Below are positions 23,701 through 64,000 of a stretch of DNA of 64,000 bases, one piece after another. This stretch comes from Psammoneis japonica. Its lineage: Eukaryota. A model generated the notes under the pieces. The model saw only the letters and a list, made by a program, of their open reading frames with translations. It was not told the origin of the DNA and ran no database searches. Positions within the stretch are counted from its first letter, which is position 1. The number at the start of each line of letters is the position of its first letter. The stretch covers positions 186,001-250,000 of the forward strand of contig QPGO01000070.1 in assembly GCA_008632985.1 (NCBI GenBank), given 5' to 3'. A program made the translations under genes and the position numbers.

Positions 23701-25246
23701 TTCTCTTCACAAAGTTGTTGACACTGCTGCACTTGGCCATGGCTGGCACTGCTGCTCTTGCAAACAATGTGAACAGTTGTGCATGAGAGAGCAGAGTGCA
23801 GAAATTTGAAAAGCACTTTTTGCTGCAGCACCCCAAAGCTCATGAGGCATGTGTGCTTGACTGCCCCTGGTGTGTTTGCACCTTGTTTGGGGGTGGATGC
23901 ATGCTTTGACAAGGCTGGGAAAAATCACAAATTGCAGTGGCAGGCACCAGCTAAAATCAGAGTCAGTTCTGTGGATGACAAGGGGTGGCACTCCAATGCA
24001 AAAAGACATGCTGATGCAATTTTTGCCTCTGATTTACCCCAATTTCTTGTTGAGCAACAACTCAAAGAGAAAGCATCCATTGTGCAAGCTTGTGAAAGAC
24101 ATTTTGAAACACACCAAGACTTCATCAGCACAAAAGCAGAGCTGAGAAGAGACAGAGGGATGGCAGCTCCTGAGACACAGAGGCAGAGCTGTGATGACAT
24201 GCTCAGCAGTCTGCTCAGCAGATGGCAGATGGCTGCTTCTTCTGCTGCTGCTTCCATCATTCCATCTCACTGGCCAAACATGTTGGGGCAGTCCAGGGGC
24301 AAAAGACTTCCATTTCTTGGCAACTCCAGAAGAACTTTTTGAGAACAATGTTGCAGAGGTGTTCTGGAGCAGTGCATCGACAAATTGTCACAAGTCGGCA
24401 AGTCACATGATGGATGAGCATGGAGAGAGGTCACTGACCAGCATGATTGACCAAATCTCTGTGGCCCCATTGCTTTGCAAAGAGAAGTGCTCTCTCTCTC
24501 TCTCTCTTGCATCTGCCCCACCACTTGAGTGTCGCGCCATTGAACAACTCTCTCACATGCAAAGCTCAGGTTTTAAAGAGCCAGCAAGAGGCAGGCTGTT
24601 GCGAGAAAGCCTGCGTTCCACTGGCCGTGCAGTCATTGGAGCCTGGAACATTCTTCAGCTCAGAAGCAACCACACACATGATGCCACACCAAAGCAAGAG
24701 AGGGAAAATGACTGGTGCCTGAGAGGGGCTTGTTTTGTGCTGTCCAGGCATTTCTCAAAAGCCACAGAGAGCCTGGAGCACTTGACTCAAAAGCAAGCAC
24801 AAGTGTTTCTCTTTGTCCCAACGCCACACACTGCCAATGCAAGAGGATTGACAAAAGCTTGTTGCGTGCACAACATCAAAGATCTTGCACTCAAAGTGCC
24901 ACCACAACAGCAGCTGTTTGAAACACCAGCTGCCCCAGAGCTTTCAGAGAACAAGTGCCTCAACAGAAAGACACAAGAGACAAAAGTTTGGCATTGCGCG
25001 ATGTTTGCAACTTTCATGCCGGGCACTGCGGCAGCGGTGCAGCACTGGAAACAAAAGGACATCACATGCTGGACAAAAATGCTTGGGTTCAACATGGCAT
25101 GAGAAATGAAAGCTTTTTCGTTGAGGCCACAGGAGTGACCGGACATTGTGTTGTGCCCAAACAAGAAGAAGTGTCCACAGAGAGGAGCACCCAGCCCAGC
25201 AGCTGTGGAGCTGCAGCTTTTCAGGCGGGGTCACAGTTGACAAAAA

Positions 25247-25284
<38 letters not shown>

Positions 25285-25500
25285 GGGGTGGTGTGCTGAA
25301 GGTGCTGGAGGAAAAGATGCCAGCTGACGAGCCACCATTGGCCCCATCTGTTCTCAGAGTCACAGAAGTGCAGCGGGCACACAATTGGGGGCACTTGAGC
25401 TCTTGCACAAAAGGAAGTGCATGATCATCCTGGCGTGCGCATGCCTGGGACTTGTGGTTCTGTTCTGTCCACGTCACACCGTTCTTTTCAGTGCACTTGT
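20770..25500. other. TpA/CpG-depleted hypermutated block C
   Basis: By my reading 23281-23950 (670 nt) has no TA and no CG. Confidence 0.9.
21750..22480 (+). pseudogene. Decayed P-loop NTPase gene fragment
   Basis: QVIHVLCDKPGQGKTVAGRALL is a Walker A motif after a hydrophobic strand; the frame breaks afterwards. Confidence 0.5.
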
Positions 25501-32100: not shown

Positions 32101-35100
32101 CTTGATCCAAAAATTGGCATCAGGTCTAGATGGGTGAAAACCAAGTTTATGGAGTCGGGCTGACAGGTTCTCATGGAAGCGGGTGCCAGAGGCACACAGG
32201 CCACACAGTCCTTTGCAGATGATGAGAATGTGGCCTTGCAGCTCACTGAATTCCAGACCAGCAATCCTGGTGCATGTTCAAGACAGAAGTGATGCCAAGT
32301 GATGCCAGCTGTGCTGTTGTCACCAAGGGCAGAATCGTGGTCAAGGCTGCCTTGGTCATGTGAGCGCACCAACTGGGTGGCTTGATCTGGCAACCAGATC
32401 ATGTGCGCTTCAAGGGTGGCTGCTTGTGAGCCCGTGCCATTGCTCCATCTGTCATGGGAACTGGCGTGGCCTGTGCCATTGCCCCATCTGATGTGGGAGC
32501 TGGAGCAGGTGTCTTTGTCCCCCTGGTTGGAGCATTGGTGCATTTGTGGGTGCATCAGCGCTCCCCTGTCCCTCCAAGGGGTTGACTCGCATCAAGGTCT
32601 GTTGGGTTCTTGGTGGCTTTTCTTCTTCTTTGGAGGGAGGAATGTGGCCTTGTCCACTTTTTTGATGGGGGGATGCGCTTGTCACTGCAATGCAGAGTGG
32701 GGATGTGACTGCCATTGATGGCGCATGTGTTGGGGTCCAAGGCATCTTGTTTGTCTTCATTGTCAAGGAAGGTGGGGTCCACAATGGGGTTGAATGACAC
32801 TCATGGATTTGCGTCATGATTGGGGTCACAGGGTTGGACAACGGATCATGACATGATCTGCTTGTTGTCATTGGTGAGGATCTTGCAGGTGAGGGCATCT
32901 CCAACATTTGGTTTGACTTCCCAACCAGTGCCCAGGAAGTTCACAGCCATGGGAAAATGGCAGAGTCATGTCCAGATGTGGTGGCTTCTGGCAGAAATGA
33001 AAGTTGAGGAATGCGGAGACATGTTGGGGGTGTCTCCATGTCATGTTTGGAGGGGTGTGGACCAGCCCAGGGTCTCATTGGTGGTGACATTGTGTGCAGC
33101 GGCAACGCATGCACAGCATTTGGGCCACGCAATGCCAGATGCACTGGCACTGTCCATGACTGTTTGGGAATGTGTTTTCAGACATTTGATGGTGTGCAAT
33201 TCCGTGGGATTTTGGTGTGGATGATGTGGCTCTGTGAACTGGTCACCAGCTGCAAACTTGCGATTGAGATCAGTGACAACTTTGGACTTTTGTGCTTTGG
33301 CATTGTCGCAATGGAGGATCTGTGGGGCTCCTTCCTTGTGCATGAAGTCCTTGTGTGTGGGTGGAAGCTTGGACTCTTTCATGGAGTGGAAGCCAGTCAT
33401 GTGGGATGATGTTCCCCAATGGACCTGTCCGCATGAACAGCCTGAGAGGCTTTTGACACCGGCAAAGCAGGTGTCAGTCACTGCCATCTCCTCAAGGCAG
33501 TCTCACGTGGTTCAATTGTGGGTGCCGTGCCTTCAAATGTTGCTGGAGGGGCACATGAAAGTGTGACTTTGCAGTTGTGTCATGGCTTCCATGGTCAGTT
33601 TGACAACCTTTCTTGGTCGACATGCAAACTTGGGATGCAGGGCATCCAACTCGGATTTGGTGAATGAGCGTTGGGCCACCTGAGTGGCACATGCAAAGGA
33701 GTCAAATGGCGCGTGCTTGCCAAATGGTTCGTCATCCTCCAGAGAGTCCAAGTGTTCATCAAGACCCCATTCTTTGATGGTTGCAGTGTGTGTGCACTCC
33801 ATGGTCAGGTGGAATGCACGCTTGCATCTTCTCGGCATTTGTTCCAATGCATTGAAGAAGCACTGGGGCTTGGTCTGGACCAATGCTGATGTCTCAGTGT
33901 CATCATGTGTTGGCGTGTCTCATTGATCCAGCAGCAATTTGTCTGTGAACTGGAGTTCAATGCCAATGATGGGGTCTGCAATCTCGCCTCTTCCAAATTG
34001 ACAAGGCAATCATGGAACTCCTCATCCATTGGTGAGGGTGGATCATTGATGTCATCCGGAGGTGTGACATTGGCAGAGCATGCTTGTTGTCTTGACTCAT
34101 GAGGTGAGTCCAGAGGTCTGCTCTTGTTGGATTCTACAAAGCTGTTGTCCCTTGTGCACAGACTGGGGATGGACATTTGTCATCCTGTGGGTTGTTCCCA
34201 TCTTCTTGTTGCACCTCACTTCCATGGTTGTCCGGTCCATCCAGTTGGCTCTCAAGTGGGGGCACAGAGGCATCTTCTGGGGCAATGTTGGGTTCAACAT
34301 TGTTGTCATCATCATCATTGTTGTGGATGACAAGTTCTGGGACGGAGCTGCTGGAGCTGACAGCACTGTCATTGTCATTGTCAGCTCCACAGCCAATCAA
34401 AGCAGGGGGGGAATCGGCATCATCAATGTTCTTGATGTGTGTTGCAGCGGCCTCTTTGAGGTTGCTGCAATCTGGCACATCACCCCACGTGGCATGAGTG
34501 GATGGAAGTTGTGCTGCAACTGAACCCAGATCAGGATCTTGGGCATCAGCACAGTGCTCTGTGGGGTTCCACACTCCAGATGCAGTGATGTTGATGGGAG
34601 TTGTCTCGTGGAGTTTGTCATCCAAGGGCAAGTGATGTGGGATGGCCATGAGCATGCCATGGGTTGAGAAGGGGATGATGATGCCATTGGGTGTGGTGAA
34701 ACGTTGGGCACCACGGTGGCCGGCTGCACTCAGGTGGTGATGGGGGACCAAATCAATGACGCAACCTGCTTCTTGACACTGGCATTCCAACAATGACAAG
34801 AAGGATGGGGTGGGGTTGGCTGTGCCCTCGTGCACAGCAAGCAGCACCACAGATCTGTCTGGTGAGTCCATCACAGTGATGCTGCCAGTGATGTCCAGAC
34901 CATTGACACGTGCATGAGACTCATAGAAACCAATTGGGTTTGCCTTGTCTGAACACCCCAGTGTCAGCACCGCCATCAGAGATGAGTGATGGTTGGTCAC
35001 CTCGGGCCTGTCCCAAAAGCACACGTGCCTTGAGGGATGACACGTTGCTGATGACGGAACATGTCACATTGACAGAGTGGAGCAAGCCCACTGGGTCCTG

Positions 35101-38100
35101 TGGTCAATGCCAGCAATGAGTTCTTTGACTGGCTCGTCACAATGGGTGCATGATGGCACCCTTGTCCTTGTCTGGTGTCAATTGTGGGATCTCGGCTGGT
35201 GTGTTGCAACCATCAGGAATGTCTGTCCCCTTGTGGGTGCATTGTGCAGCATTGATGTGGGCTTCAACAATGTCACAGAGGATGGTCTTGAAATTGTCTT
35301 CCAAATGAGGTGGTTCCTGCATGGTGGTCTTGATGTGGTGGCGGCTTTGTTCTGTGTGGTCCTTGTTGCATCAGCTCGCCCATTTCCAAAGACAGATCAA
35401 GGTGTCACCACAGGACAAAGCGTCGCATTGGGCTGCAATGTCATGCATCAGGTTAGAGCAAAGATTGATGAGCAGTCATGCCTTGTGTGTGCTGTCAGCC
35501 CATTGGCATGCTGCGTGTGTGGGTGCATCTTGGTGAATGGCAGCCTCAACATTGATTTGGTTGATTTTGGTGAAGGCCATCTCGCAATCATTGATGAATG
35601 CGGTCACTTCACCCGTGCAGTGTTGGGAGTGCCGCATGTTGACAGTGTCTTCCCAGTTTGATCTGAGCAAGTCGGAAGTGCCTTCTTCTTTGTGGTGCTC
35701 CAGGAAAGCATGCCATGCCTTGAACCCATCTTTGTCTTTCTTGTGTGGTGCAAGGAATTGTTTTCCAATGCCCTTGCGGCATGCAGTGACCAAGGCACCA
35801 TGCACACATTCACGGTCTGCCAGCAGTTGGTTGAGAGTGATGTTGGGTTGCAAGTCTGGCATCAACTCTAAGACTTGTTCACTGTGTTCCTTGTGCACCT
35901 GCAGAAAGTCAGGGTCCGTCAAGTGGCCAGCCTGTTGCATGATCCAATTTTCCTCAAACAAGGATTTGAATTGTGGGAACATCATGTTGTTCCCATCCCA
36001 AGCAATCTTGACCAAGATGGGGTGCCATTTGCAGACAGCATGGTGACATTCTTTGGAGTGGCACAAGAGAGGACATTGCAGAGAGGACGTTTCACAGGTG
36101 ACAACAGTGGTCAGCATCAATGCAGGACAGTGCGGCACTGTCGTGACCGGGAGCAGAGAATGCATTGTCTTCAGTGGCACATCCCCCCCTGTTGCCATGG
36201 TGTGGTGCATTGGGTGATGCAGTGTGGGGTGGTCGTGCATCGGGGTGGATGGCAGTGGCAGAGGGAAGGCCTCCAAAGGAAACACCCAATGGCAGCAGGG
36301 GCTTGGATTGGTGGGAGGCAGAGTGGGTGGGTGGGGGGTCCAATGGTGGTGCCACAGCTGGGGCATCTTTGGCAGCTGGCATTGAAGTGGCTGGTGTGGT
36401 TGCAGGGGTGGAAGCTTCTGCAGATGGGGCAGGTGTGGGGGTGCTGTGGGAGTGCCGGCACATGTTGGGGACACATGGCAATTGGTTTTGGTTTTGGGGG
36501 GTCAAACCATTTGGCACCAGCATTGCAAAGTTGGGCTCATGTTGTGCGCTGTTGACGTTGCCTGCACAGTGTAAAGGTGGGTGCATCAAAATGGGAGACA
36601 ACAAAGTCGCCAGCTTTGTCATGCATGAATTCCCTGGCATGGGCTCTGTGTGCACGGATGTGCACCACATCTTTGCCAAGGTTCTTGAATGCTTGGTGTC
36701 CTGGCATGTCATGGACAGACAGCAATGGGAGCTGCGCGAAGTCAACAAATGGTTGGATGCTGCCGATGCTGTGTTCGTTTGAGAATTGGGCAGTTAAATC
36801 CAACAAGATTGGCCTGAGGCCAGGCTCTGTAAGGAACGTCTGCAGGTTGTCGTTGATGGGCTCCGTGATTGCAAATGCATCGGCAATGTCATCCCAATCT
36901 GTGATGTCACATGCGGGGTCAAACATCTTGACTTCGTGGTGATGCTTGGGACACTTGGGTTTCCTGCCTGAAAGGGGCTACGTGGGGCTGGTGTGTTTTT
37001 GCACAGTGTGTTTTGTGGTGTTCTCTTTGCTGGTTTTGTGCTCTTGTGCCTGAGCATGTTGCAGTGTTGTGTTCACTGGTCAGCAACAAAATTCTTTTGG
37101 CCTCTGTGACCTTGTCACTGGCACTCCTCACGCCCAGCTTGAGTGTCAAGAGCCTGTTGTTCAGGACACAAAGCTCTGGTGCCATTGGTGGTGTCATCAA
37201 CCCAGTGTCCTCCACCAGATCTGCAAGAGATCTTGACATGGGTGCAAACCTCCTTGGCCTGCTCAACTTCCTCAGCTGTGCACTGGCAGGGGTGCTTCTG
37301 CCCCTGACTCTCAACTTGAATCTTGATGCTTGACGTGTCCTGGTTGCTCACAGAATGTCTCTCTTCAGCTAAAAAGCAATCGGCTCTGATGAAGTGGCAC
37401 AGTCACACCTTTGCCCAGCAACACTGGTGCCGGCTGACCCACACCTCCAGTGCACCCTGCAAGGGGTGTGGTAGAAGTTCATGCAATCAGTCGGTCAATG
37501 CGCCGCTTGGCAGCAATGCACACTGGAGACAAGAGGTCACAAGGAGGAATTGCACAAGAATGAGATTATTGCTTTCCTTCAGAGAGGATTTGGTGCACCC
37601 AAACTGCCACAGCAAAGGACAATTGCATCAAGCAGAGCATTCAAAGTGAGTGAAAACTCTGGGAGAAAATCTTTGCTTCTGAGGGAGAATCTTGTCTTAA
37701 CAAAGACTGACTGAATTTCACAATTGCGTGCACCAGCACAAAAGTGTGCAGTTTGCTGCCCGGAACAGTGATCTTGGCAGGCCAGCAAGAAGAAAAGGGG
37801 GTGTTTGGGACTTGCAAGAATGAAACAGGTGACCTTCTTGGTGACATGATGAGAAGGTCGTCGGAAGAAGCAAACATTGTTCTCACGTAGAATTGACACT
37901 GAATCTTGCACAGAAATGCCAATCCATGCAGTGAATGGACAGTCATCAGGCAATGCCAATGGTTCATCCAAACCAACACACGCAGGTGCAATGACAGGGA
38001 CAGTGCTTTCACCACATGAGGTGAAGAACTTGAGTGGCCAGCGGGAGGAAAAGAAACTGCACTAAATCCGCAAAAAATTGCCAAACAAGACAACAAGCGT

Positions 38101-41100
38101 GCGAACCACAAGGCATTGATGCCGGGTTTTCTCCACTGAAAATTGTTGCACATCATGGAGAGACAAGGGCGTGCCAATGGCAGAAGGGGCCAAAAGGTTG
38201 GGGGGGGGGGGGGGGACCCAGCAAAACACCGTCCAAAAAGGGCAATGTCAGTGCAAGAGCATGCATGGAAACACAAGCAGGGGCTGACAGTTGGTGCTTG
38301 CACAGAAAAGTGGCTCTGATGAAGCAGCAGTTGGGAAAGCAATGCAGAAACCCAGTGATGTTGTGTCAATGGGTGTGATGACAACAGCAGTCAAAGGACA
38401 CTCCTGCACAGTTCTTGCAGTTGCTGGCCACACTTCACTGGAACATGAACGTTGCATCTGCACAAATGTGGTCTCACACATGAGTGAGTTGGAACACCCT
38501 TTCTTCACGTTCAACCATGTTCTCAAAAACATTTGTTCTTTCCCCACAGTGCCTTGGTTTTGTCTGAGTTGCAGATCCATTCCAGTGCAAATTTGCAAAG
38601 AGAGCAAAGAATCTTGCCGCACGCTTTCTTGACACTGTCATCAAACCTGACAAACATCCCACGCATGATGTCTCCATTGTTGCCACCAACAATTGGACCA
38701 ACATGCAATCCAGGTTGCAGGTGCAGCCAGCTGTGGTGCAGCCTCTGCACTGCTTTGTGTGCTTCATGAACATGGTCATTGTTGAGCGTTCCATCATTCA
38801 AGCCAATCACAGAACACTCAGACAATGTTGCCTCTGAGGTTTTGTTCTCTGCTGACAACAAAAGCAGTTGCTCCTGTTGTTCTCTGCTTGAAGCTGCACA
38901 AAGCTTCATCTCCAGTCCAACTGCCATTTTTGTGCCATTTGCCATTGCTGTTGCAAGAAAATCAACTGAGTCCTTGACAGCTTCCTCTCATTTCTTGCAA
39001 ATCATTCCAGCCTCATGTGTGGACAACAATTGAAATGGTGTTTTGCCGGCATCTGAGCATGCCGCCATCTTCTTTGCAAACACAGGCTCAAGATGATGAC
39101 CTCTTTGGCAGCTCTCAAGAGACTTTCCCGCAAGCTTGGGAAGGAGTGCAGATTGAAACAGTTGCTCTGATGCAGTGTGAGCTGCATTTTGTCCACTGGC
39201 TCCATGCAATGATGTCCTCCTTCTGCCTTGTCCTTGTTGATGAGAGCAGCTGTGATGTCATCTTCTGATTTTCTTGTGGCACTGCAGCCACGCAGGCAAG
39301 GTCTTGCTTCTTGTGCAACCTCCGTCCTGTTCTTCAAAATGTGCAGGCATTTGTCAGTGAGTGCATGAATCTGCTGTTTGAGTTTGTTTTTGATGGGACT
39401 GATTGCCTTTCCACCGCTGCTTCCTCCAAGCTCTTGCACACGGGCCCAAATCTGCCTTTTGGGCAACTTGTTTTCATTCAGCGGCGCACGCGGCTCAGCT
39501 CTTTGATGTGAGACTCCTCTTGTCACATCAATGGTGTGTTGTGCACAATTGCAGCTCACTCTTGCACACTGTTGGACCCATTCCAATGCAGCCACATCAA
39601 TGCCGGTGGCACGCAAGATGGATTGAGGTGCTTTTCTCAGTGGCACAAGCAGTCGGTTGGTGGCAAATGCAGGCCTGAATGAGCACTTGACAATGCCATT
39701 GTCACAGCTTGGTTGCCATTTCTGCAGGCATTTGCAAACAATTCCACATTCGGCTTGGTGGCTTTGCAGGATTTCTGGAGAAGAATTTTTGGTCCAACCA
39801 TTGGCCCCAAAGTGCGTGCATCCCCTTCCCGTAATTTCTGGCAGCACGCAAATGGAAACCAGCGAGAGCGTTTGATTGTGTTGGCACCAAGCAACCCGCC
39901 AAGCTCCAGGACATCAAACACAAGATCAAAGCTGGTGTTGCTGTGGTCAAAGTCACACTCAACATTTGTGAGGTGCCGTTGCTCGCTTCCACCATTGTTG
40001 GGTGCAAAGAGGCATTTCTTGGCATCCGCTTTACACTGGTCGCTGTGGTGTCATTCTTTCCCTGAACACCAAAGCCAGTTGGGACACCAGTTGCTGTGTG
40101 CATTGCTGCATCAATCACAAAGCTTCTTCTTGCATTGTCCCTGGCACATTGTGCCAGCTTGGGCTTGTTGCCTTTGACTTGTTGTGTGACATGATGATGC
40201 ACTTTGTCATCGTCGACAGTGACTTGTGTCTTTTCTTTCATTCCCTCTGCAAAAAGCTCAGGACACGTTCCAGATGCAGGTGGGAATCCATGTGACATTG
40301 GGCCTTTTAGAACTCCATGTGCAAGCTCCACAGCAAAATTGTGAGGCAATGAAAATGTCAATGATCACCAACAGAAAATGAGGCAATTTTGCGAGTGCAC
40401 AAACTCGTCCATGATTGAAGTGCATCATTTTTTACTTTGCCAGTTACATTCTTCAAACGCATTGTTGTTTCCATAAATTTGTCACATGTGAGACAACTGG
40501 GGATTTGCAAAACAGTGAGTCTGGACATTTTTTTTTGAATGTCACACGCAGAAATGTGTGTGCAAAACATGTGACAGATGACAAAAATCATTTGTGTCAC
40601 ACGTCAGCACTGCGAGCTCCCACCGCACCTGGAGCTGGAACGCATCTCAGCTGCAAGTTGATTGAGGCATTCCTCAAGCTTCCTCCAGAAAGACTTTCCA
40701 GCTCATTTGCTGGATCTCCAACTTTCGTCTACATTGCAGATCAGCTTCCAAAATGATGAATGCTCTTCTTCTTTGGCGAGCAATCCAGGAAACATTTTGC
40801 AATCACGCGTGTCCTGAGCTGGCACGTCAACTGCACAGGACAAGAAAAAGGTTCCAAGGCAGTGTTGGAAATTGCCAGCTTGTCCACAGAGGGCCTTGAA
40901 TTCTTCCTCCAGAAGATGAAAGAGGTGACTCCGTGCCCCCAAAAAAAACACTGTGACGGTGGCCTGGCCATTCCTCTTTTTGCTGTGCTTGGCTTTGAAA
41001 GAGGTTGGTGGCAGAGTTTACGAGAGACATTCCATGCATTTACAAGAGGTGGACCCTTCACTTCATTTTCCACACCCAGACCAAGGCAAACTGCATGTCA

Positions 41101-52583: not shown

Positions 52584-52874
52584 TGTCGTCACTGCATTGT
52601 GATCGCAGTTGATTCACGGTTGGAAATGAACAAAAGTTGCTGAGCAGGATTGAAAGAGGCTTCAGGCAGGCTGGAAGCATCAACGACTGAACTTCAAACT
52701 CGCGACCACCTTCGCGCGCACCGGCACCCATGTTGCTGACGTGGCTTATGTGGTGACACGTAGAGTATACCAGAGTATGTTTTTGGTACAAAATAGTGTA
52801 TGTAGGGAATATATACAAAGTCTACGTGATACACGCGTCACACGAAGAAAATTGAACCATGAATTTTTTGCGCG

Positions 52875-54982
52875 ATGTCGCAAGTCAAAAGTCCAACACG
52901 ATCGACGATCGAACATCGAACACAAAAAATCACAGCGGAGGATATTCAGTGCCAGTTCAAGAGTTTATCGAAACCAACATCAATGCAAGTTCAAGGCGCA
53001 TTAGACAACCAGATGGAGATACATTCAACCGATGATGAGCCTCAAGCTGAGGAGTGGGTCGAATTCGAAGGGTCTCATCATTTCAAAACTGCGTTGCCCG
53101 ACAAGTCTGACACTCCAAAAGACACTGAAGAAGTTGGTACAAAAGAAGCTTCGCCCTCTGTGGATACGCCTACAACCGAGGCTGTCATGCGTGATTTAGA
53201 AGCAACCGAGGCTGCCATGCGTGATTTAAAAGAGTCGAAGAATCGAAAGGAAGATGCACAAACTGGAACAAACGGAGACACGTCATATCAAGAGAAAGTC
53301 GAGGATGTAGCTGATGCAGCTCATGCAACGGGAGAGTCATTACCAGAGAGTGCAGCAGAAACGCCACCCAAACCAAAAGTCGAAGAGCCCGAGAAAGAAG
53401 AGTCAGCCACAGATCCGAAACTTGATGTGATAGATACAGTTGCTGAACAAACAGTAGAAACCTCGGAAGAGCCAAAGGAGGCTGAGGAGCCAGAGGTACA
53501 AGAACCGGTCGTAGCGGAAGCCCCTGACGAGCCGACGGTTGTGGAGCCAGAGAAACAAAAACCGGCCGAGGATGAAACCCCTGAGGAGTCGAAGATTGAG
53601 GAGCCAGAGAAGAAAGAGTCGGTAGTAGCTGACACTTCTGAAGAGCCCAAGGTTGAAGGGCCTGAGAAAAACGAACAGGTCGTAGCTGAAACTTCTGAAG
53701 AGCCCAAGGTTGAGGAGCCGGAGGAGCAAGAACCTGCAGTTGCACCCACAGCCATCGTAAGCGACCCTGACGAATCTTTTGAAATTACGGAACAAGANGA
53801 ATCCCAGAGCAAGGACGAAGAATTTCAGAAGCGAAAAGTTTAGAAGATTCAAGCAGCAATATCAGTCAAGCATCAACTGATTCTGGTGTTCGTCGAATGA
53901 GCTCAAGCAGCAACATCAGTCAAGGGTCAACTGATTCTGGTGTTCGTCGAATGAGCCACATGGTTACACCGCCACGACAGAGAAAGGACCAAGATGATTC
54001 GATCATGCATCGCGGCAACTCTATTATTCTTGACATTACCTCGCCGCCTGATCTGATGCTGGAAAAGGCAAACCCAGAGAAGTCTCAGTCGGACATTCCC
54101 TCCCCAACCGAAAACCAGCGACCACAAGGCTTTGGGACTCCACCGCGAGTGCAAATCGGTGCCAAGCCACGAAAGCCATCGAAGACAGCATCGATTGATT
54201 GGTTCAAAACCACGCGCGACAAGGGAAAGGTCGACAGCCTTGTATTGACGGACAAGTCACAACGCAAGTTGGAGGTAACTACAGAAGAGGTGGCTGCGGA
54301 TCCGGAATATGGACACGCAGAAGAGACTGTTGCTGTGTTCAATGCAAATAGTCCTGAGGGTTCGCTGACTGTCAAAGCTTTATCAAAGAGAGGATGCAAT
54401 GTAGTTGCAGTTGTGCGAGTCTTTACCAGTCAAAATACAAAGTTGCTCCTTCGGTTACCGAGAGTTACAGTGAAGGTTGCGGACTCCCATGATCGAACGG
54501 CCTTGGCAAAGTAAGTTTGGACTCTGTATTTATGTTGTTGTCGAGTTTGATTCAAATCGTACCTCACTTTTAAAATGGTCGTTCTCCCGTAACTTTAGCG
54601 CAATTAAAGGGGCAGACCGAGCGATTCTGGTAACAAAGTATTGGGAACGGTTCGAAAGTCGACTCGAGGAAACGCAAGCGGACATTATCATTGATGCATG
54701 CCATGATGTAGGCGTGCCACACGTTGTGTTTAGTACGTACGAAGACATCAAAGCACTTAGTCGCAGTGGCAAAAAATCTCAAATTGTTCCGAATCAGGCG
54801 GGCAATGTGGAACCTAGCTTTGAAGGAATGAAGGCTGCCAAAGAGAAAGCCGAGAGTTATGATATTCTCCTCACACACATGATGACGTCGTATCTCGACA
54901 AAGAAAAGACAAAGAAATCGCTTTGCCTGCTTCTAGCGGAAAGGGAAAAGTTATTGTGAAGCCGTATTTCAAGGATGTTTAA
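52875..54982 (+). CDS. Protein with long Glu/Pro-rich repeats and a C-terminal NmrA-like Rossmann domain
   Basis: EEPKVEEPE repeats; the frame changes at the N at 53798. VAVFNANSPEGSLTVKAL..VVAVVR; intron 54511-54598; AIKGADRAILVTKYWE..GVPHVVFST. 54-bp tandem duplication at about 53850-53957. Confidence 0.7.
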
Positions 54983-57916: not shown

Positions 57917-58707
57917 ATGTGCTTGAATTGCGAGACTTGCCTCGCACTTATTTTTTGGAGGACTGCTCGGACCGTACTTGCAGCTGCGGCGGCTGCGACG
58001 GCCTTGACCGTGACGGCGGAAACGACAACAACAACACCGTCGACTGCTTTTGTTGGCGGTGGAAGAAATTCACCCAGAAAGAAAACACATGATGGAATGT
58101 CGCTCCCGCATGTCGGCAGGTCTGGTTTCTTGCGACCCCCGAGCATTGTAACGTACTGCGAAGCATCCAATGTACAACTCTTTGAAAATGCAACGAGCGA
58201 CGGAGTTTCACCATCTTTTCATTATGAACGCATGCCGCCTCCACCAAGGTCTCTGGCGTCGTCTCATGCCATTTTTGGGCACTTGCTGAAGCCAAACCTA
58301 CTCGAACGTTACAATGTCTATCGGCGTGTCTATATTGATGATGATTCCAACAAGCCAGAAGAAGGTCACGAAGAAGTTGTAGTTGTAGATTTGGGATTTG
58401 GAATGAATCTGAATGGGCCTGAGGATATTGTTCATGGAGGTATTCTTGCCTTGATTATCGACGATTCCATGGGTTTTGCCTTTGAAGCAATGGGAATACG
58501 CATGGCCTTTACCGCCAATCTAAACATTGACTACCGCCAACCAGTCCCTGCCGGTGTGTCTGCCGTGCTGCGGATATATCACAAGGAAACAATTGGTCGA
58601 AAGCTATACTTTGAAGCAAAATTGACAAGCCCAGACGGAAGTGTGCTGTATGCCGAAGGATCCGGCCTTTTTATTTTGCCAAAGGACCAAAGTCAAAGTG
58701 ACGGATA
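57917..58707 (+). CDS. Hotdog-fold acyl-CoA thioesterase (THEM4/PaaI-like)
   Basis: LNGPEDIVHGGILALIIDDSMG..FTANLNIDYRQPV..GRKLYFEAKL..LYAEGSGLFI. Confidence 0.9.
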
Positions 58708-58964
58708 ACTCAAGCGACACCCTGCAGTTGAATTTATGTAAAGGCAGAGACTTCTTGATTCAATGGGGGGTTTTGAACGCTTTGTCGAGCGCAGCAAGGC
58801 CTACTATGGTATGCTGTAGATACTTTAAAAATTTGTTCAATGCTTAATGAATCTGCTATAGCTCTTTACAAAATTGTTTCGTTATGCGTAGTAAGTAGCT
58901 GTCCGCTTTTATGTTGGTAGCGCGGCGTTGTCGTGTTGCAATGGGCAGGCGTGTGCACTCTAAG

Positions 58965-60337
58965 TTATTGTCGCCCTTGAACCATGCGGTTGGAATTATT
59001 TACAGTGCCCGAATTGGACAGTTGGTTTCGTCTGAGAACAAACAATACTTTGAGAAAGTCTTCAAGAGTCAAACGCTCTTGGACGCCCAAGGAATCCATG
59101 AGATTGTCCATGCGTTCACGCGATGGTTGGTTGGTGCTGTTCATAAAGGCGTAATTCACTGCCCGTCGTACATCAAAGCGCGAGAGCGTTCCCTTGTGTT
59201 CATGATCAAAATTGAAGTAAAAGCGCTTCATAAATTCAAATGTGTTTTCGTCCAAGGTCATCTTTGGCCCGAAAAAATCTTGTAAGGAGTCCTCAATTTC
59301 GTCTCGACTGGTTGTGGTGCCGCCACTTTGAAGAGCAGCCTCTGTATAGTCCATTTGGTTGTTTACCTTTATCCATGTTTGTACAAAGACATGTGCGTCG
59401 TAGAGGACATGTCCAATAATGCACGGCAAGATGTCTCCACCAGCCAGCAGATACACAATTCCGTACCAAAGACCATTTAAAGTGTGCAGCATGCAAACCA
59501 CTCGATTCTCACCCGCTGAAGCTCGTTTCGAGCAGTGCGACAGCCCAAATATTGTAGCTTGACCAATAAGTGCAGGAAACGTCGAATGGTTACTCAGAAG
59601 ATAGAGTAGGGAAGGTAACTCTCCTCGAAACACAATCTCTTCGATAAATCCGGTGACAAGGGTAAGGAGCGCCACCATTGGCAAAACGTGCATAATCGTT
59701 TGACTATGAATTTCGGGATGTGGCTCGTTGTTCGAGGAAAACAGTTTGTTTCGTCGTCCAAACAAAGTCATGACAATGTGATTGGTGGAGAAACTTGCGT
59801 GGCTTTCGTCACGTCCGTCGGAGTTGTCCACCAGAGTTCCCAAATAAATCATGGGTATCGCCGTCAAGATGCCTTCGACCACTCGGAGTGGTGTCAGTGA
59901 CCAGTCAAAAAGCGACGAAAAGCCGGCTTGGTCGGCATTCCAGTGCAAGGCATTAAAGTCGAAAGAGTTCTGAGTGAGAAATAGCCCAACAAACGTAATC
60001 ACGGATGCAACCACCAACGTCAAGAGTTGCGACACTACAATCACACTTGTTAGGGGAACGCCTGTCCGGCTTGTTTTCTCACTCGAGGGATTTACCATCG
60101 TGGGCGCCGGAGGAGCATGGTGACTCTTTGTATCGACAACACCGACAGCAGCAACCGCAGTTTCAGCTTCATCATGTCGGTTCGATACGACAGGGGAGAA
60201 CAACGCGGCGGCTGTTGTACTGAAACCACAGGAGCGATTCCCCTTACACGGGATCCAACAAGAAAGCCGTTTGACTCTTGCATCAACAATGATACGGTGA
60301 GAACCAGCAACAGGGTGTTGCGAAACCGGCACGCCAT
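58965..60337 (-). CDS. CPBP/CAAX (Abi) intramembrane metalloprotease with C-terminal EF-hand-like region
   Basis: EEIVFRG, IFGLSH, GHVLYD motifs; FDHEHKGTLSRFDV. The signal peptide starting at 60337 is in another frame (frameshift at about 60220). Confidence 0.85.
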
Positions 60338-60689
60338 CGTGAATACGAAAGGTTCTTGGTCAGCCTTTCAGTCTCGAAAAATGGTAACTTGTTAGTAGAT
60401 TATAGCCGCTAGAATTCGTTGATTGTGTGGCAAATTTGATCAAAAAGTGTGGCGATGACATGTGATGATGTTTTACTTTTTCAGCTTTCGTGTCACACGT
60501 GTCAGCCTCGCGGTATTTTCGTTGGCTCTTCGTTCGATGTTGACACCCGTGTGACACCAAAATTCGATTTTGAAAATAACGGTCAACTAATAATATCTTA
60601 ATTTATGAATATATAATAAAAATTAGACAAAATGTCTCTTAACGTTGTGACTTGTCTTATGACCGGACACTTCAACTTCACATGAGTCC

Positions 60690-63050
60690 TCGTGAATGGC
60701 TGATAACTCACCGATCACAAGATTAGATGATTCGAGCTGCAAGACGCTTTTTCAACATCATCAGTTTCTTTCCTTTGTGGGGGGAACCTGTGTGCGCCAC
60801 AGGATCCAACGGAGTGACCCATCCCCGGTGCTTTCGGCAGAGGTGGCTCATCTCTGGAATGAGAATGAGAGGTGTGGGAGGTGCCTTGTGCACCAGCCCA
60901 AAACAAAGATCATGTGCTTCGCGCCAGCGAACTCCACCTCAAACCAAAAGCTGGTGCGAGAGTTGGGGGGAAGATGGAGACTGAAAGGTGCACTCATGCT
61001 GCTCTCTGGTGGATGGCTTTGGGGTGGGGGGGTGGGGGCAGCTTGTGTTTGCCCCTGCGTGCCGTGGCCTGTGCCTCGCCACAGCTTTTGCACTCGCAGT
61101 CATCAGCTGCAGCACCAGCCAAGTGAATGGAGCAATTTGTTTGCTGCTGCAGCGCTGGTGTGCCATTCTTCAAGGGAGCAGCCAGCTGTTGTGGTGGAGT
61201 CAAAGCACACCACAAAATGTGTCAGAGCTTGTGTGAGCACCATTTTCGCCATCTTTGTGATCAAGGACATCCAAACGGCCATTGCCCATGTGCACAAACA
61301 CAAAACACACCAGTGGTTGCACAAGCATGAGTGATTTCATTGTTGACAACAGTGCCAGCAAGCGCCTTTTCACAATGGTGCAGAAGCCATCAAATCAAGA
61401 CACACACTTGGTGTCCTCCCTCTTGATCGTTGCAACTGCTGTTTGCAGGAAACATGTCTTTTTGCATGTGCACCCATGTTGCCTTTGTTTCAATGCATGA
61501 AAACAGCATTGCCATCCATGTCCAGGGGCCAGGCTCAAAAAATTCTTCCACTCGCACTCCACTTGCCATCTCAACCACGTCAGATGAGAAAAGCAATGGA
61601 GGCAACCACTTTCATGAAAAGGAAAAGACATTTGCTTTCCATTCCAGCAAGGAATGAAAAGTGCAGCAAATGCCTCAGCAATTTGGCACAGATGGCATCC
61701 AGGTGTTTGTGTCTTTCATCTCTCACAAGTCTGTGCACAGTGTGGCAGGGTTTCTTGTCATCAACTTGGGGCCCATTTCTCAACCATTGAGAGGCTTGTG
61801 CTGCATCAGGTGGATGTTCTTTGGGCTGGGGCAGACAATGAATGCTGAGCTAAAAGTTGGACCATCCCTGATGCAGTTCCATTGAAAGCAAACACCACCT
61901 TGCTGCTGCTTTTTACAAGAGTGGCAGGGATGAAAAAGTTGTTGCTGCCCCAATCTTTCCACCATGTGCAGTGTTTTGTGAGAGACCACCATGGTTTGCC
62001 CCATGCAGCAGCAAGTGCATCCTTCTTGCAGTTGTTGTCCAACCAACAATGATCCACCATGAGATCATGAAGGTGTGGAACAAGATCAATGGGAAGGGCA
62101 ACTCTCTGGCCTGCGCAAAAGGGGCATCGACCTCAGCTCCCTTTTTTGAGTCCAGTGCCAGCTTGTTGTGTGGCCTTGCAGCTGGTCATTTTTACACCAG
62201 AGTCTTGCTCCTTTTCAACCAGATGCCAGTTGAATGGTTTTTCAAGTGCCAGAAACATGTCAAGACAATGGCTGCACATGAAACTGCTTTGTCCGTGTTT
62301 TTGTTTGAACCAGCCAGATGTCAACCAAAAATGTGACCAAAAATGGTGTGTGTGCAGCAGGCGGAGAGCCATGAAGAGATCCCAAATGAAGAGCTGGGCA
62401 GAGAAGAGACCAACTCACCACAACCACTGCAGCTCCAATGTTTTCAACTGGAGAGCCTCCAGTGTGGGCCAGCTTTTTTCATGGACTCGACAGCACACAC
62501 GCGCACACAATCAACCAGTGTCTCGACCCGATGCTCTTTTGCTGCAACTCCTTTGCATGCCAACATCTGCTGCAGTGCCAAGAATTGTCATTGTCCCACC
62601 TCTTGTCTGGCAAACTGATCTGCCAGTGCTTTTGACAAAAAGGCCATCTCTTTGTGGGGGTGTGCTGCTGCCTCCTTTTGCACACCACCAGTCGGTCCCA
62701 GGTGGTCATGAGGATTTGCTTGACACTGACATGTCATGCCTCAACTCAGAATTTCAGCCAAATTGCAGCCAAAAGCTGGCAAGAGTTTTGGAACAGGGAG
62801 GCCGATGGGTCAGTGCTGCTGTGTGACAGGCTTCTTGAGAAAGGGGGAGAAAAAGGGCTGGAGAGGAGGTGAGAGCTTGTGTGGTCTCCACTCTTGTCCC
62901 CCTTTGTGTGGGCAGAGCCTTGGCCTGTGCTTCTCACAGCTTTGGCATGGTGGGTGCTTGTAGTCATCAGATGCAGCGCTGGCCATGTAAGAGAACACAG
63001 ACCAACTTGTGTTTGCTGTTTGCTGCAGTTCCAATGCCACATTGGGGGCA
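60690..63050. other. TpA/CpG-depleted hypermutated block E
   Basis: TA nearly absent, bounded by TA-rich DNA at 60590-60620 and 63085-63100. Confidence 0.9.
61230..61850 (+). pseudogene. Hypermutated copy of the upstream region and exon 1 of the neighbouring gene (63070-63680)
   Basis: Collinear alignment, e.g. ggtggatgttctttgggctggggcagacaa vs ggcggatattctttgggctggagtagacaa. Confidence 0.9.
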
Positions 63051-63249
63051 CACAGTAGATAGACGCGGTGGTGTGAGCATGTTCAACATATATAATGTAT
63101 GGCATTGAATAAACGTATTTTCGCGATCTTTGCGATCAAGATTCAAGATACCCACACCTAATACCGCGTACCATCCAAAGTTGCAAGTATCACCTTCATT
63201 GTTGACAACAACAAGCAGCTTTTCACAACGACGTGAAAGCCATCGCATC

Positions 63250-64000
63250 ATGACGTTCAACGTCCTTTTGATTGTTGCGACTGTTGTTTGTAGGCAGCAT
63301 GCTGTCGCGTACGCTCCCGTGTCGCCCTTGTTTCAACGCGTGCGGCAAACGGCATTGCCGTCCATGAAGGGCTCTGCTCGAAACGATTTTTGTGTATTGA
63401 AAATGTCATCGACCGCATCAGATGAGGAAAGCGATGGAAACAACTACTTTCGTCGCAAGGAACGATTTGCTTTGCCTTCCGACAATGTAAAATACAACAA
63501 CCGTCCCAGCAACTTGGCAGAACGCGTCGCGATTCGAGCATTTCATTATGCAAGTCGCAAGTGTGTGCAGTGGGGTGCCCTGTCGACTTGGAATCCGTTC
63601 GTCAAGCTTCTGAGTTTTATATTGTACCAGGCGGATATTCTTTGGGCTGGAGTAGACAAGGAGTACTATGTCAAACGTCGTGCCATGTATGGACCAAACT
63701 TTATTTCTGCTATATGTGAGTAGCCCTTTTGTTCTGCAGCTGCATCTTGGAAAGCCTTCTGCAAGGCTGATGCATCCGTCACAAACAAGACTCGCTCAAC
63801 TTTTCCATTGCCCCTTTTTTGTTCTTTTCGTTTCGTTCAGCGGTCGTTGTCAGCAAGTTTGATCCAGAGGCAGTTGCGGAGGATTCGCTGGATGCACAAT
63901 TGATTGGCTTGCCACAAAAACGTGGCTTGTTCTTAGGGTCAACCATTATGACTCGAGACCATTTGCCTCTGGACGCGAGTATTACGAATCCCGACAAAAA
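63250..64000 (+). CDS. 5' part of a protein with a signal peptide, possibly a cytochrome P450 (truncated by the window end)
   Basis: MTFNVLLIVATVVCRQHAVAYAP.. exon 1 ends at GTGAGT (about 63716); acceptor TTCAG at 63840, then GVVSKFDP..QKRGLFLGS. The P450 idea rests only on YYVKRRAMYGPNF. Confidence 0.55.

What the first reader, a model, noticed from the sequence alone, without database searches (positions are those of the whole stretch)
61230..63680. Internal control: a host-gene duplicate 1.85 kb from its source shows directional TA and CG loss, in one copy only
Seen, intact -> decayed: ttgcga->ttgcaa, ttgtag->ttgcag, cccgtgtcgcc->cccatgttgcc, caacgcgtg->caatgcatg, aacggcattgccgt->aacagcattgccat, aactactttcgt->aaccactttcat, gcggatatt->gtggatgtt, gtagac->gcagac, tacta->tgctg. 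Almost every alignable CG and TA is converted. Inference: the process also acts on non-TE sequence, and it spares one partner. RIP mutates both copies of a linked duplication, so this suggests targeting by chromatin domain rather than by homology pairing. Selection on the intact copy is an alternative explanation.
Basis: seen in the sequence. Interest (0 to 1): 0.82.

Follow-up and report, generated by a model that had tools for sequence, protein, structure and literature searches.

The report
Gene duplicate stripped of TA and CG
In a diatom-like genome, a spare copy of the front end of a working gene has had almost every TA and CG changed to TG or CA, while the expressed copy 1.8 kb away is untouched; this shows a position-limited mutation process of a type I could not find described.

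Summary
Two collinear units, A 60944-61865 and B 62769-63686, lie 1821-1864 bp apart. B holds the upstream region and exon 1 of a spliced cytochrome-P450-like gene. Of 62 aligned CG or TA in the intact copy, 1 survives in the decayed copy and 44 are now TG or CA. Other dinucleotides survive in 257 of 484 cases (Fisher p 2e-17). Outgroup proteins put the changes on the decayed copy: 38 of 46 differing codons.

"One copy only" needs correction. The distal 284 bp of unit B (62767-63050) is decayed too. The TA/CG-free domain (about 60725-63050) ends about 200 bp before the ATG.

The intact copy shows no loss at codon positions 2-3 and 3-1, in its 199-bp upstream DNA, or in its intron. Non-ORF DNA elsewhere in the window is not depleted either. 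Site-by-site selection therefore fails as an explanation.

The most likely reading is position-limited mutagenesis of silent DNA. CG loss fits 5mC deamination. The TA-specific A:T>G:C activity has no known counterpart. A RIP-like burst with selection against damaged gene copies is not excluded. Six literature searches found no description.

The parts
60725..63050 (.). TA-free domain between two divergently oriented genes. The CG-poor core runs about 60960-63060.
   Evidence: No TA between 60724 and 61851. There are 5 TA and 27 CG in 60851-63050. Change-points: TA at 60725 and 62960, CG at 60960 and 63060. O/E in 61001-63000: TA 0.03-0.05, CG 0.18-0.19, TG/CA 1.7-2.0.
60944..61865 (+). Unit A: decayed duplicate of the upstream region, 5' leader and exon 1 of the P450-like gene.
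   Evidence: Collinear repeats D1-D7, D9, D12 and D13 at spacing 1821-1864. Alignments. Start codon lost. 20 gaps in the coding alignment, 14 of them not multiples of three. TGA at codon 140.
61866..62768 (.). About 0.9-kb linker, equally TA/CG-free, with no detectable homology to the intron or exon 2 of the gene or to anything else in the window.
   Evidence: Alignment of 61860-62890 with 63716-64000 scores 64, against a null mean of 67. tblastn with 8 outgroup proteins gives no hit with E<0.1 there. No Pfam hit for the ORFs at 62071-62823 and 60696-61331.
62769..63050 (+). Unit B, distal upstream part: homologous to 60944-61190 and itself decayed.
   Evidence: 284 bp (62767-63050) hold 2 TA and 2 CG against 37 TG and 22 CA. 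Against unit A: 224 aligned bases, 169 identical, 35 transitions, 20 transversions. There are 4 TG<->CA discordant pairs and 7 pairs where only one unit keeps CG or TA.
63051..63249 (+). Unit B, proximal upstream region and 5' leader: normal composition.
   Evidence: 199 bp hold 13 TA and 11 CG. The spliced contig of run X2 begins at 63189.
63250..63715 (+). Exon 1 of the intact cytochrome-P450-like gene, with an N-terminal presequence.
   Evidence: Translation P0001. 16 homologues at E<=0.001, 10 at E<=1e-10, with the match starting around residue 64. Four of 7 longer homologues hit Pfam p450. Joint 63715/63841 in an X2 contig.
63716..63840 (+). Intron (GT..AG, 125 bp) that contains a short element repeated elsewhere in the genome.
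   Evidence: X2 contig skips 125 bases with GT..AG ends. Summed X1 word depth reaches 1143 in 63628-63828, with many short contigs and loose ends. The intron keeps 4 CG and 1 TA.
63841..64000 (+). Start of exon 2. The gene runs off the window.
   Evidence: tblastn hits from 8 of 8 outgroup proteins at about 63825-63977. The joined reading frame is open.
58965..60359 (-). Left neighbour: ORF with an Rce1-like CAAX protease domain. Its 365-bp upstream DNA has normal composition.
   Evidence: Pfam PF02517, E 2.1e-11. 60360-60724 holds 22 TA and 18 CG.

Best explanation
Shown: A segment of about 0.92 kb, holding the upstream region, 5' leader and first exon of a diatom cytochrome-P450-like gene, was duplicated about 1.83 kb upstream in the same orientation. 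The upstream unit, the 0.9-kb linker and the distal 284 bp of the downstream unit now form one 2.3-kb intergenic domain. In it nearly every CG and TA has been changed by a single transition into TG or CA. The domain stops about 200 bp before the ATG of the gene on the right, which is present as a spliced-transcript-like contig, and about 365 bp before the start of the ORF on the left.

Inferred: The mutagenesis is limited by position. It acts on DNA lying in a silent, probably modified and heterochromatic, interval whatever the origin of that DNA. It is kept out of promoters and gene bodies. Two activities operate together. The first is C:G>T:A at CpG, most simply deamination of 5-methylcytosine, which diatoms are known to place on silent DNA. 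The second is a strictly TpA-specific A:T>G:C transition that is even more complete (O/E 0.04 against 0.21) and often reaches a little further out. Its chemistry is unknown. Candidates are enzymatic adenine deamination, or oxidation or modification of thymine at TpA.
For: - Duplicate and its extent.
- Specificity: CG+TA kept 1 of 62 against 257 of 484 for other dinucleotides (p 2e-17). 44 of 62 became TG/CA. The reverse change is 5 of 86.
- Only the O/E of TA, CG, CA/TG, GC and GA/TC differs between depleted and normal DNA. AA, AC, AG, AT and CC stay within 0.95-1.07 of normal, so the A>G change is confined to TpA.
- Polarity: 38 of 46 codons favour the intact state.
- Position rather than copy: the boundary near 63050 lies inside unit B. 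Distal to it, 2 TA and 2 CG remain in 284 bp. Proximal to it, 13 TA and 11 CG remain in 199 bp.
- Decay after duplication in both units: 4 discordant TG<->CA pairs plus 7 one-sided retentions.
- Not site-by-site selection: codon positions 2-3 and 3-1 and the intron of the intact gene are normal.
- Not a genome-wide bias: 7011 bp of non-ORF DNA in normal domains has TA O/E 0.71 and CG 1.06.
- Four further domains in the window have the same composition.
- The TA-free zone runs 150-405 bp beyond the CG-poor zone at 6 of 10 edges, including 235 bp at the left edge here. This suggests two activities.
- Real sequence: the X1 contig agrees.
- Diatom lineage: all named ABCG homologues are diatoms, at 41-60% identity.
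- Diatoms methylate silent transposons and carry DNMT4, a relative of fungal RID of unknown function (passages of PMC9998398).
Against: - No methylation, chromatin or expression data exist for the domain, so 'silent chromatin' is inference only.
- There is one gene duplicate in one window, so n = 1. A transition-tolerant scan found no other decayed gene copy in the window.
- At 4 of 10 domain edges the TA and CG change-points differ by -70 to -135 bp, that is, they coincide or are slightly reversed.
- The left edge of the CG-poor core (60960) falls at the start of unit A (60944). A homology-triggered process would also predict this.
- Part of the decay of the shared upstream segment could predate the duplication: 31 of 42 informative dinucleotide pairs are concordant.
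- No known enzyme gives TpA-specific A:T>G:C change in nuclear DNA.
- The genome is not held, so candidate genes could not be sought.
Confidence: 0.55

Rival explanations
1. RIP-like, homology-triggered mutagenesis. The linked duplication was recognised, and tracts covering both units and the linker were mutated in bursts. Haplotypes in which a tract reached the promoter or coding part of the working copy were lost by selection. The visible boundary is then simply the limit of what the gene tolerates.
For: - The domain consists of unit A, the linker and the start of unit B.
- The CG-poor core starts at 60960, 16 bp from the start of unit A.
- Both units carry post-duplication conversions in their shared upstream part.
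- Diatoms have DNMT4 enzymes related to fungal RID (PMC9998398 passages).
- From recall, not from a call: Neurospora RIP also mutates linkers between close repeats and can spread beyond a repeat border.
- Elimination of whole haplotypes would leave synonymous sites of the surviving copy untouched.
Against: - Conversion in unit A is saturated: 61 of 62 CG/TA changed at 68% overall identity. By recall, that identity is far below what homology recognition in RIP needs.
- The proximal 650 bp of unit B has normal composition.
- The TA-free zone runs 217 bp to the left of unit A, into DNA that is not duplicated here.
- Four other domains of 1-11 kb show no internal or in-window duplicate apart from one fragment of about 110 bp.
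- The domain sits at single-copy word depth, 60.5 against 57.6 and 52.8 in its flanks.
- Half of the chemistry (A:T>G:C at TpA) and the CpG target are not those of RIP.
Confidence: 0.2
2. The gene fragment was captured by a mobile element or integrated virus. That element's DNA acquired the TA/CG-free composition during its own replication, or by selection to evade a host nuclease or sensor, and it then inserted next to the source gene.
For: - The 0.9-kb linker and the left flank have no identifiable origin.
- Other depleted domains may be old mobile elements.
- The homology ends close to the exon 1/intron border.
Against: - The copy includes about 300 bp of non-coding upstream DNA and lies collinear, in the same orientation, 1.83 kb from its source.
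- The source unit's own distal upstream DNA carries the same decay in place.
- No terminal inverted or long direct repeats frame the segment.
- No transposon protein domain was found in 167 ORFs of depleted domains.
- The word depth is single-copy.
Confidence: 0.1
3. There is no targeting. TA and CG are hypermutable everywhere in this genome, and all sequence of normal composition is held by purifying selection site by site. The duplicate simply drifts to the neutral equilibrium.
For: - The decayed copy is a pseudogene with about 25% divergence at non-target sites as well.
- Every non-coding stretch longer than about 1 kb in the window is depleted.
Against: - Codon positions 2-3 and 3-1 of 3566 control codons have CG O/E 1.01 and 0.88, and TA 0.57 and 0.55.
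- 7011 bp outside ORFs in normal domains has CG 1.06 and TA 0.71.
- The intron and the 199-bp upstream DNA of the intact gene are normal.
- Domain edges are sharp, with rates changing about 10-fold within tens of bases.
Confidence: 0.05
4. Sequencing or base-calling artefact: modified TA and CG in silent DNA are misread as TG or CA.
For: The window differs from the X1 contig by two single-base insertions next to runs of the same base. This hints at a long-read assembly. By recall, base modification can bias long-read base calling.
Against: - An X1 contig at word depth 60.5 reproduces 59940-63744 with 1 substitution and 2 indels.
- The decayed copy also differs from its source by 67 transversions and many indels. 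That is real divergence.
- X1 may come from the same sample, so it is not fully independent.
Confidence: 0.03

Closest known systems
Repeat-induced point mutation (RIP) of Neurospora and other fungi (RID-dependent)
   Same: Irreversible transition mutagenesis. It is specific to a dinucleotide context, is found on a linked duplication and the DNA between the copies, destroys the reading frame of a gene copy, and produces sharply bounded domains of odd dinucleotide composition.
   Different: RIP gives only C:G>T:A, mainly at CpA. It creates TpA, lowers G+C and hits both copies (recalled knowledge; abstract of PMC2621366 seen in the listing). Here TpA is destroyed, CpA/TpG is the product rather than the target, half of the changes are A:T>G:C, and G+C stays at 0.49-0.51. 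The working part of one unit is untouched.
CpG decay by deamination of 5-methylcytosine in methylated silent DNA (vertebrate genomes; CpG-targeted hypermutation of transposons in basidiomycetes, PMC3318451, listing only)
   Same: CG>TG/CA restricted to silent intervals, with unmethylated promoters and genes keeping their CpG. The residual CG O/E of about 0.2 is like that of vertebrate bulk DNA. Residual CGs are relatively enriched in G/C flanks.
   Different: This process does not remove TpA. Here TA loss is stronger than CG loss (O/E 0.04 against 0.21) and often reaches further out.
Somatic hypermutation of immunoglobulin genes (AID plus error-prone patch repair by polymerase eta at WA motifs); recalled, no call
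   Same: It couples cytosine deamination with A:T mutations in the surrounding few hundred bases, with TA as a hotspot. It would account for TA loss spreading beyond the CG-poor core.
   Different: Polymerase eta also mutates AA. Here AA/TT O/E is unchanged, 1.19 against 1.16. SHM is transcription-coupled and somatic. Nothing here links the process to transcription.
Ordinary unprocessed pseudogene after a partial tandem duplication
   Same: Lost start codon, frameshifts, an in-frame stop, and about 25% divergence at non-target sites.
   Different: Neutral drift does not erase two dinucleotides selectively (1 of 62 kept against 257 of 484). Non-ORF DNA elsewhere in the window is not depleted.

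Membership tests
RIP (fungal repeat-induced point mutation) | Only C:G>T:A transitions | tested here: not met
   T>C and A>G at TpA account for 14 of the 44 conversions to TG/CA. Overall there are 60 A:T>G:C against 55 G:C>A:T transitions.
RIP (fungal repeat-induced point mutation) | Preferred target CpA (TpG), product TpA, giving AT-rich DNA | tested here: not met
   CA/TG O/E rises to 1.83 and TA falls to 0.04. G+C is 0.495 in depleted DNA against 0.44-0.48 in normal DNA.
RIP (fungal repeat-induced point mutation) | Both copies of a duplication are mutated over the duplicated length | tested here: not met
   Unit A is mutated throughout. Unit B is mutated only in its distal 284 bp, and 63051-63715 has normal composition.
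RIP (fungal repeat-induced point mutation) | Premeiotic timing and dependence on a RID-type DNMT | not testable with these tools
   No genome is held. DNMT4/RID-like genes exist in many diatoms, with unknown function (PMC9998398 passages).
Methylation-driven CpG decay | CG>TG/CA in the affected interval, with CpG kept in active genes | tested here: met
   30 of 42 CG became TG/CA and 1 was kept. CG O/E is 0.21 in depleted DNA against 1.0 in normal DNA.
Methylation-driven CpG decay | 5-methylcytosine present on the interval | not testable with these tools
   No methylation data. The runs X1-X3 are held as contigs only.
Methylation-driven CpG decay | It accounts for the whole pattern, with no other dinucleotide lost | tested here: not met
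   0 of 20 TA are kept and 14 became TG/CA. TA O/E is 0.04.
Cytochrome P450 (identity of the source gene) | Significant match to the P450 profile and a Cys heme-ligand region | tested here: inconclusive
   The window holds only exon 1 and the start of exon 2, and these have no Pfam hit. Homologues of 450-530 aa match from residue 64 on. Four of the 7 scanned hit PF00067 at E 3e-11 to 5e-06, above the gathering score. An Atlas feature search with P0005 gave P450 clusters at 0.95-0.96.
Transposable element (for the depleted domain itself) | Transposon protein domains, terminal repeats or multiple copies | tested here: not met
   0 of 167 ORFs from depleted domains hit Pfam at E<=0.01. No framing repeats. 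Single-copy word depth. Heavy decay could hide such features.

The most novel reading that the evidence does not exclude
This diatom has a genome-silencing mutator of a kind not described. Within silent chromatin it erases both self-complementary pyrimidine-purine steps, TpA and CpG, into TpG/CpA, whatever the origin of the DNA. It uses a nuclear, TpA-specific A:T>G:C activity alongside 5mC deamination. That activity could be adenine deamination, or thymine oxidation or modification at a palindromic site that can be maintained like CpG methylation. Active promoters act as barriers. The process works as a homology-independent, G+C-neutral counterpart of RIP.
Probability: 0.4. Interest if true: 0.9.

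Novelty: new variant of a known kind. Interest (0 to 1): 0.78.

Why it matters
Context-specific mutation of silent or repeated DNA is known from fungi (RIP) and from methylated CpG decay. In both cases only cytosines are lost.

Here a gene duplicate with a known source, a known polarity and an untouched partner 1.8 kb away shows that a diatom genome also removes TpA. It does so by A:T>G:C transitions, more completely than it removes CpG, and within sharply limited intervals.

If this holds genome-wide, three things follow:
- It points to an unknown DNA-modifying or editing activity acting on A:T pairs in nuclear DNA.
- It gives a sequence-only way to read silent chromatin domains in diatom genomes.
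- It explains why old repeats in such genomes escape similarity searches. All the changes are transitions, so purine/pyrimidine-level alignment recovers them.

The locus is a ready-made assay. The boundary lies inside a duplicated unit, so position and sequence can be separated.

Tried and rejected
- Whole genome: not held. No genome-wide survey and no search for DNMT, deaminase or TET/JBP genes was possible.
- DNA-level outgroup: two scans of metagenome contigs, one with alignment A3 and one with P0001, found no relative. Polarisation therefore rests on 12 protein homologues at 35-59% identity. Synonymous sites could not be polarised.
- The search for homologous proteins with P0001 against longer proteins: no hit. 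The exhaustive HMMER search then found 16.
- The listing of cluster members: not available.
- Earlier notes of this scan: four look-ups returned nothing relevant.
- Transposon identity of depleted domains: 17 + 150 stop-to-stop ORFs gave 0 Pfam hits. 30 further ORFs of the 180 listed were not sent, mostly in 60696-63135. Two of those (60696-61331, 62071-62823) had already been covered.
- Other decayed gene copies in the window: 1508 chunk comparisons gave nothing between a depleted and a normal chunk above the null tail (best 221, 99th percentile 228). Chunks that overlapped each other were excluded. The best depleted-versus-depleted hit reduced to a shared fragment of about 110 bp.
- Continuation of the duplicate into the intron or exon 2: not significant (64 against a null mean of 67). 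tblastn does not see the decayed copy at E<1.
- Expression: no RNA holder was listed. X2 is of unrecorded kind but holds a GT..AG-joined contig of the intact gene. X2 has no cover over 58000-63024, and X3 laid nothing. This says nothing about whether the decayed copy is silent.
- Polymerase-eta-type WA mutagenesis: considered and set aside, because AA/TT O/E is unchanged.
- ApT-directed 6mA: set aside, because AT O/E is unchanged (0.88 against 0.91).
- Strand co-asymmetry as evidence for deamination of both C and A on one strand: in 29251-36600, TG is 977 against CA 756, with positive GC skew and negative AT skew. By my arithmetic the base skews are larger than the TG/CA imbalance can explain, so this was left open.
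- Literature: six full-text searches and passages of two papers gave no description of joint TA and CG erasure in any alga. The library lacks most subscription journals, so an existing description cannot be excluded.
Full report
**What is there**

The window has G+C of about 47% and carries long, intron-poor ORFs on both strands. The only named homologues of its ABCG transporter ORF are diatom proteins, at 41-60% identity. I take it to be from a diatom without a close sequenced relative. I did not try to go further than that.

Its dinucleotide make-up falls into two states.
- Most of the window has CG O/E about 1.0 and TA about 0.55.
- Five intervals have TA O/E 0.04, CG 0.21 and TG/CA 1.7-1.9 at unchanged G+C. 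They are 8801-9850, 14201-16800, 20801-25400, 29251-40350 and about 60725-63050.

The finding concerns the last interval.

**The observation**

Over 563 aligned bases the two copies are 68% identical. Of 42 CG in the intact copy, 1 is kept and 30 are CA or TG in the other copy. Of 20 TA, none is kept and 14 are CA or TG. Together that is 1 of 62 kept, against 257 of 484 for the other fourteen dinucleotides (Fisher p 2.3e-17). The reverse change occurs in 5 of 86.

Per base, transitions affect 31-52% of C/G in CG and 40% of T/A in TA, against 8-18% elsewhere. Transversions run at 8-25% in all classes. So the copy is old, with roughly a quarter of non-target sites changed, and the two dinucleotides are saturated on top of that.

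The homology is not a composition effect. A transition-tolerant local alignment of the core scores 722, against at most 115 for 112 segments drawn from the other depleted domains.

A contig of run X1 reproduces 59940-63744 at word depth 60.5 with one substitution and two single-base insertions. The depth in the flanks is 57.6 and 52.8. The depletion is therefore in the DNA, not in the base calling, and the interval is single-copy at the 31-mer level. X1 may be the source sample.

**Extent of the duplication**

The repeat finder gives a collinear series of direct repeats with spacing 1821-1864 bp, running from 60944/62769 to 61865/63686.

A continuation into the intron and exon 2 is not significant, at 64 against a null mean of 67.

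The duplicated unit is thus about 0.92 kb. It comprises about 480 bp of upstream DNA and leader plus exon 1, and it ends near the exon 1/intron border. The 0.9 kb between the units (61866-62768) matches nothing I could test.

**The source gene**

- Exon 1 (63250-63715) translates to P0001.
- An exhaustive HMMER search found 16 homologues at E<=0.001, 10 of them at E<=1e-10. Several are 450-530 aa long and align from residue 64 onwards.
- Four of the 7 homologues scanned hit Pfam p450 above the gathering score.
- A contig of run X2 starts at 63189, runs to 63715 and continues at 63841. It skips 125 bases with GT..AG ends. That is the form of a spliced transcript, although the run's kind is not on record.
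- The joined frame is open, and exon 2 matches all 8 outgroup proteins tested.
- The N-terminal 60 residues look like a bipartite plastid presequence. That reading rests on my recall of the motif and was not tested.

**Polarity**

At 46 codons from residue 64 on, the two copies encode different residues and at least six outgroups are aligned. The outgroups favour the intact residue 38 times and the decayed one 6 times, with 2 ties.

- Tyr126 is Tyr in 10 of 12 outgroups, and Tyr139 in 7 of 12. Tyr is encoded only by TAY, and the decayed copy has CAT and TGC there.
- Arg96 is Arg in 10 of 12 outgroups. CGA has become TGT.
- The decayed copy has lost the start codon. It carries 20 alignment gaps in the coding part, 14 of them not multiples of three, and a TGA at codon 140.

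**Where the line is drawn**

This is the main correction to the finding. Unit B is not spared as a whole.
- Its distal 284 bp (62767-63050) have 2 TA and 2 CG against 37 TG and 22 CA.
- The next 199 bp, up to the ATG, have 13 TA and 11 CG.

The change-points for both dinucleotides fall at 62960-63060. That is inside the duplicated unit, about 140 bp before the first base of the X2 contig.

In the shared upstream segment, where both units are decayed, there are 224 aligned bases with 35 transitions and 20 transversions. Four dinucleotide pairs are discordant (TG in one unit, CA in the other). In seven pairs only one unit still has the CG or TA. At least part of the decay therefore happened independently in both units after the duplication. 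31 of the 42 informative pairs are concordant, so some of it may be older.

On the left, the last TA is at 60724, which is 365 bp from the start of the Rce1-like ORF. CG stays at normal density until about 60960 (9 CG and 0 TA in 60725-60941).

**Is selection on the intact copy enough?**

Not site by site.
- At codon positions 2-3 and 3-1 the intact gene has CG/TA O/E of 1.10/0.54 and 0.98/0.52. For 3566 codons of eight control ORFs the values are 1.01/0.57 and 0.88/0.55.
- Its intron keeps 4 CG and 1 TA.

Nor is the depleted state simply the fate of unconstrained DNA. 7011 bp outside ORFs of at least 100 codons in the normal domains has TA 0.71 and CG 1.06.

What cannot be excluded is selection on whole haplotypes. 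If the process acts in tracts, lineages whose tract reached the promoter or the gene would have been lost, and the survivor would look untouched.

**What the process looks like**

Only TA, CG, CA/TG, GC and GA/TC change in O/E between the two states. AA, AC, AG, AT and CC stay within 0.95-1.07 of normal. The A:T>G:C change is therefore confined to TpA. This argues against polymerase-eta-type WA mutagenesis and against an ApT-directed mark.

All the changes are transitions, so the purine/pyrimidine pattern is conserved. That is why transition-tolerant alignment recovers the homology.

The 55 residual TA sit mostly in TTA/TAA contexts: 88 of 110 strand-counted tetranucleotides, against a fraction of 0.40 in normal DNA. 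Residual CG is relatively enriched in G/C flanks and depleted in TCGA and ACGA/TCGT.

At 6 of 10 domain edges the TA-free zone extends 150-405 bp beyond the CG-poor zone. At the other four the two change-points lie within -70 to -135 bp of each other. TA loss is also the more complete of the two. I read this as two activities that share a target interval, not one.

**Most likely mechanism**

The steps shown are the duplication, the polarity, the dinucleotide specificity, the positional boundary, and the failure of site-wise selection and of a genome-wide bias.

The inferred part is as follows. The interval between the two divergent promoters is silent, modified chromatin. Whatever DNA lies in it loses CpG through deamination of 5-methylcytosine. 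It loses TpA through an unknown A:T>G:C activity. Active promoters set the limits. Diatoms are reported to methylate silent transposons, and many carry DNMT4, a relative of fungal RID of unknown function (passages of PMC9998398).

I give this 0.55. The rivals are:
- A RIP-like, homology-triggered tract process with haplotype selection, 0.2. In its favour, the domain equals unit A plus the linker plus the start of unit B, and the CG-poor core begins 16 bp from the start of unit A. Against it are saturation at 68% identity, the extension of TA loss into non-duplicated DNA on the left, the lack of in-window duplicates for the other four domains, and a chemistry that is not RIP's.
- Capture of the fragment by a mobile element, 0.1.
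- No targeting at all, 0.05.
- Sequencing artefact, 0.03.

**Comparison with known systems**

The locus fails three tested defining features of RIP: cytosine-only change, CpA target with TpA product, and mutation of both copies over the repeat length. It meets the CpG-decay pattern, but TA loss lies outside that pattern.

Six full-text searches and passages of two papers gave no description of joint TA and CG erasure in an alga. The library lacks most subscription journals.

I therefore class it as a new variant of a known kind: context-specific mutation of silent or duplicated DNA. The TpA-specific activity is the part that may be categorically new.

**Limits**

- There is one duplicate in one 64-kb window.
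- The genome is not held and no DNA-level outgroup was found.
- There are no methylation, chromatin or stranded expression data.
- The transposon nature of the other domains is untested beyond 0 Pfam hits in 167 ORFs.

Noticed in passing
window 8801-9850, 14201-16800, 20801-25400, 29251-40350: Four more TA/CG-free domains (TA O/E 0.00-0.10, CG 0.03-0.38, TG/CA 1.4-2.4). Together with the studied one they cover about a third of the window. None of 167 stop-to-stop ORFs from them hits Pfam. Their long ORFs are expected anyway, because TAA and TAG stops cannot occur without TA.
   Followed up: partly
window, the ten domain edges: The TA-free zone extends 150-405 bp beyond the CG-poor zone at 6 of 10 edges (for example 60725 against 60960, and 28926 against 29331). 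At the other four the two change-points lie within -70 to -135 bp. This suggests that two separable activities share a target interval.
   Followed up: partly
window 29251-36600: Strand asymmetry inside the largest domain: TG 977 against CA 756 on the + strand, with GC skew +0.10 to +0.29 and AT skew -0.09 to -0.21 at 31-37 kb. That is the direction expected if C>T and A>G both occurred preferentially on one strand. By my arithmetic the base skews exceed what the TG/CA imbalance alone explains.
   Followed up: partly
window about 29900-30060 and about 38470-38610: A fragment of about 110 bp shared in direct orientation at high identity inside the 11-kb depleted domain. It is the only convincing internal repeat found there. 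The rest of the long alignment around it looks like composition-driven noise.
   Followed up: partly
window 63742-63844 (intron of the P450-like gene): A short stretch at which many X1 contigs pile up. Summed word depth is 1143 against about 60 in the flanks. There are loose ends on both sides and variant insertions CCATAG/CCACAG behind 63771. It is probably a short dispersed repeat. It has normal TA/CG content even though it is repetitive.
   Followed up: no
window 59749-59968 (inside the Rce1-like ORF): A second X1 contig of 221 bases at depth 73 differs from the window at 22 positions. Of the 18 listed, 15 are transitions. It could be an allele of a diploid genome or a paralogue.
   Followed up: no
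depleted domains, residual sites: The few surviving TA are mostly in TTA/TAA contexts. There are none in ATAT, ATAC/GTAT or GTAC. Surviving CG favour G/C flanks, while TCGA and ACGA/TCGT are the most depleted. These may be flank preferences of the activities, or sites newly created by mutation.
   Followed up: no
window 53798: A single N in the sequence. ORFs on either side (52863-53843 and 53783-54514) may be one gene interrupted by it.
   Followed up: no
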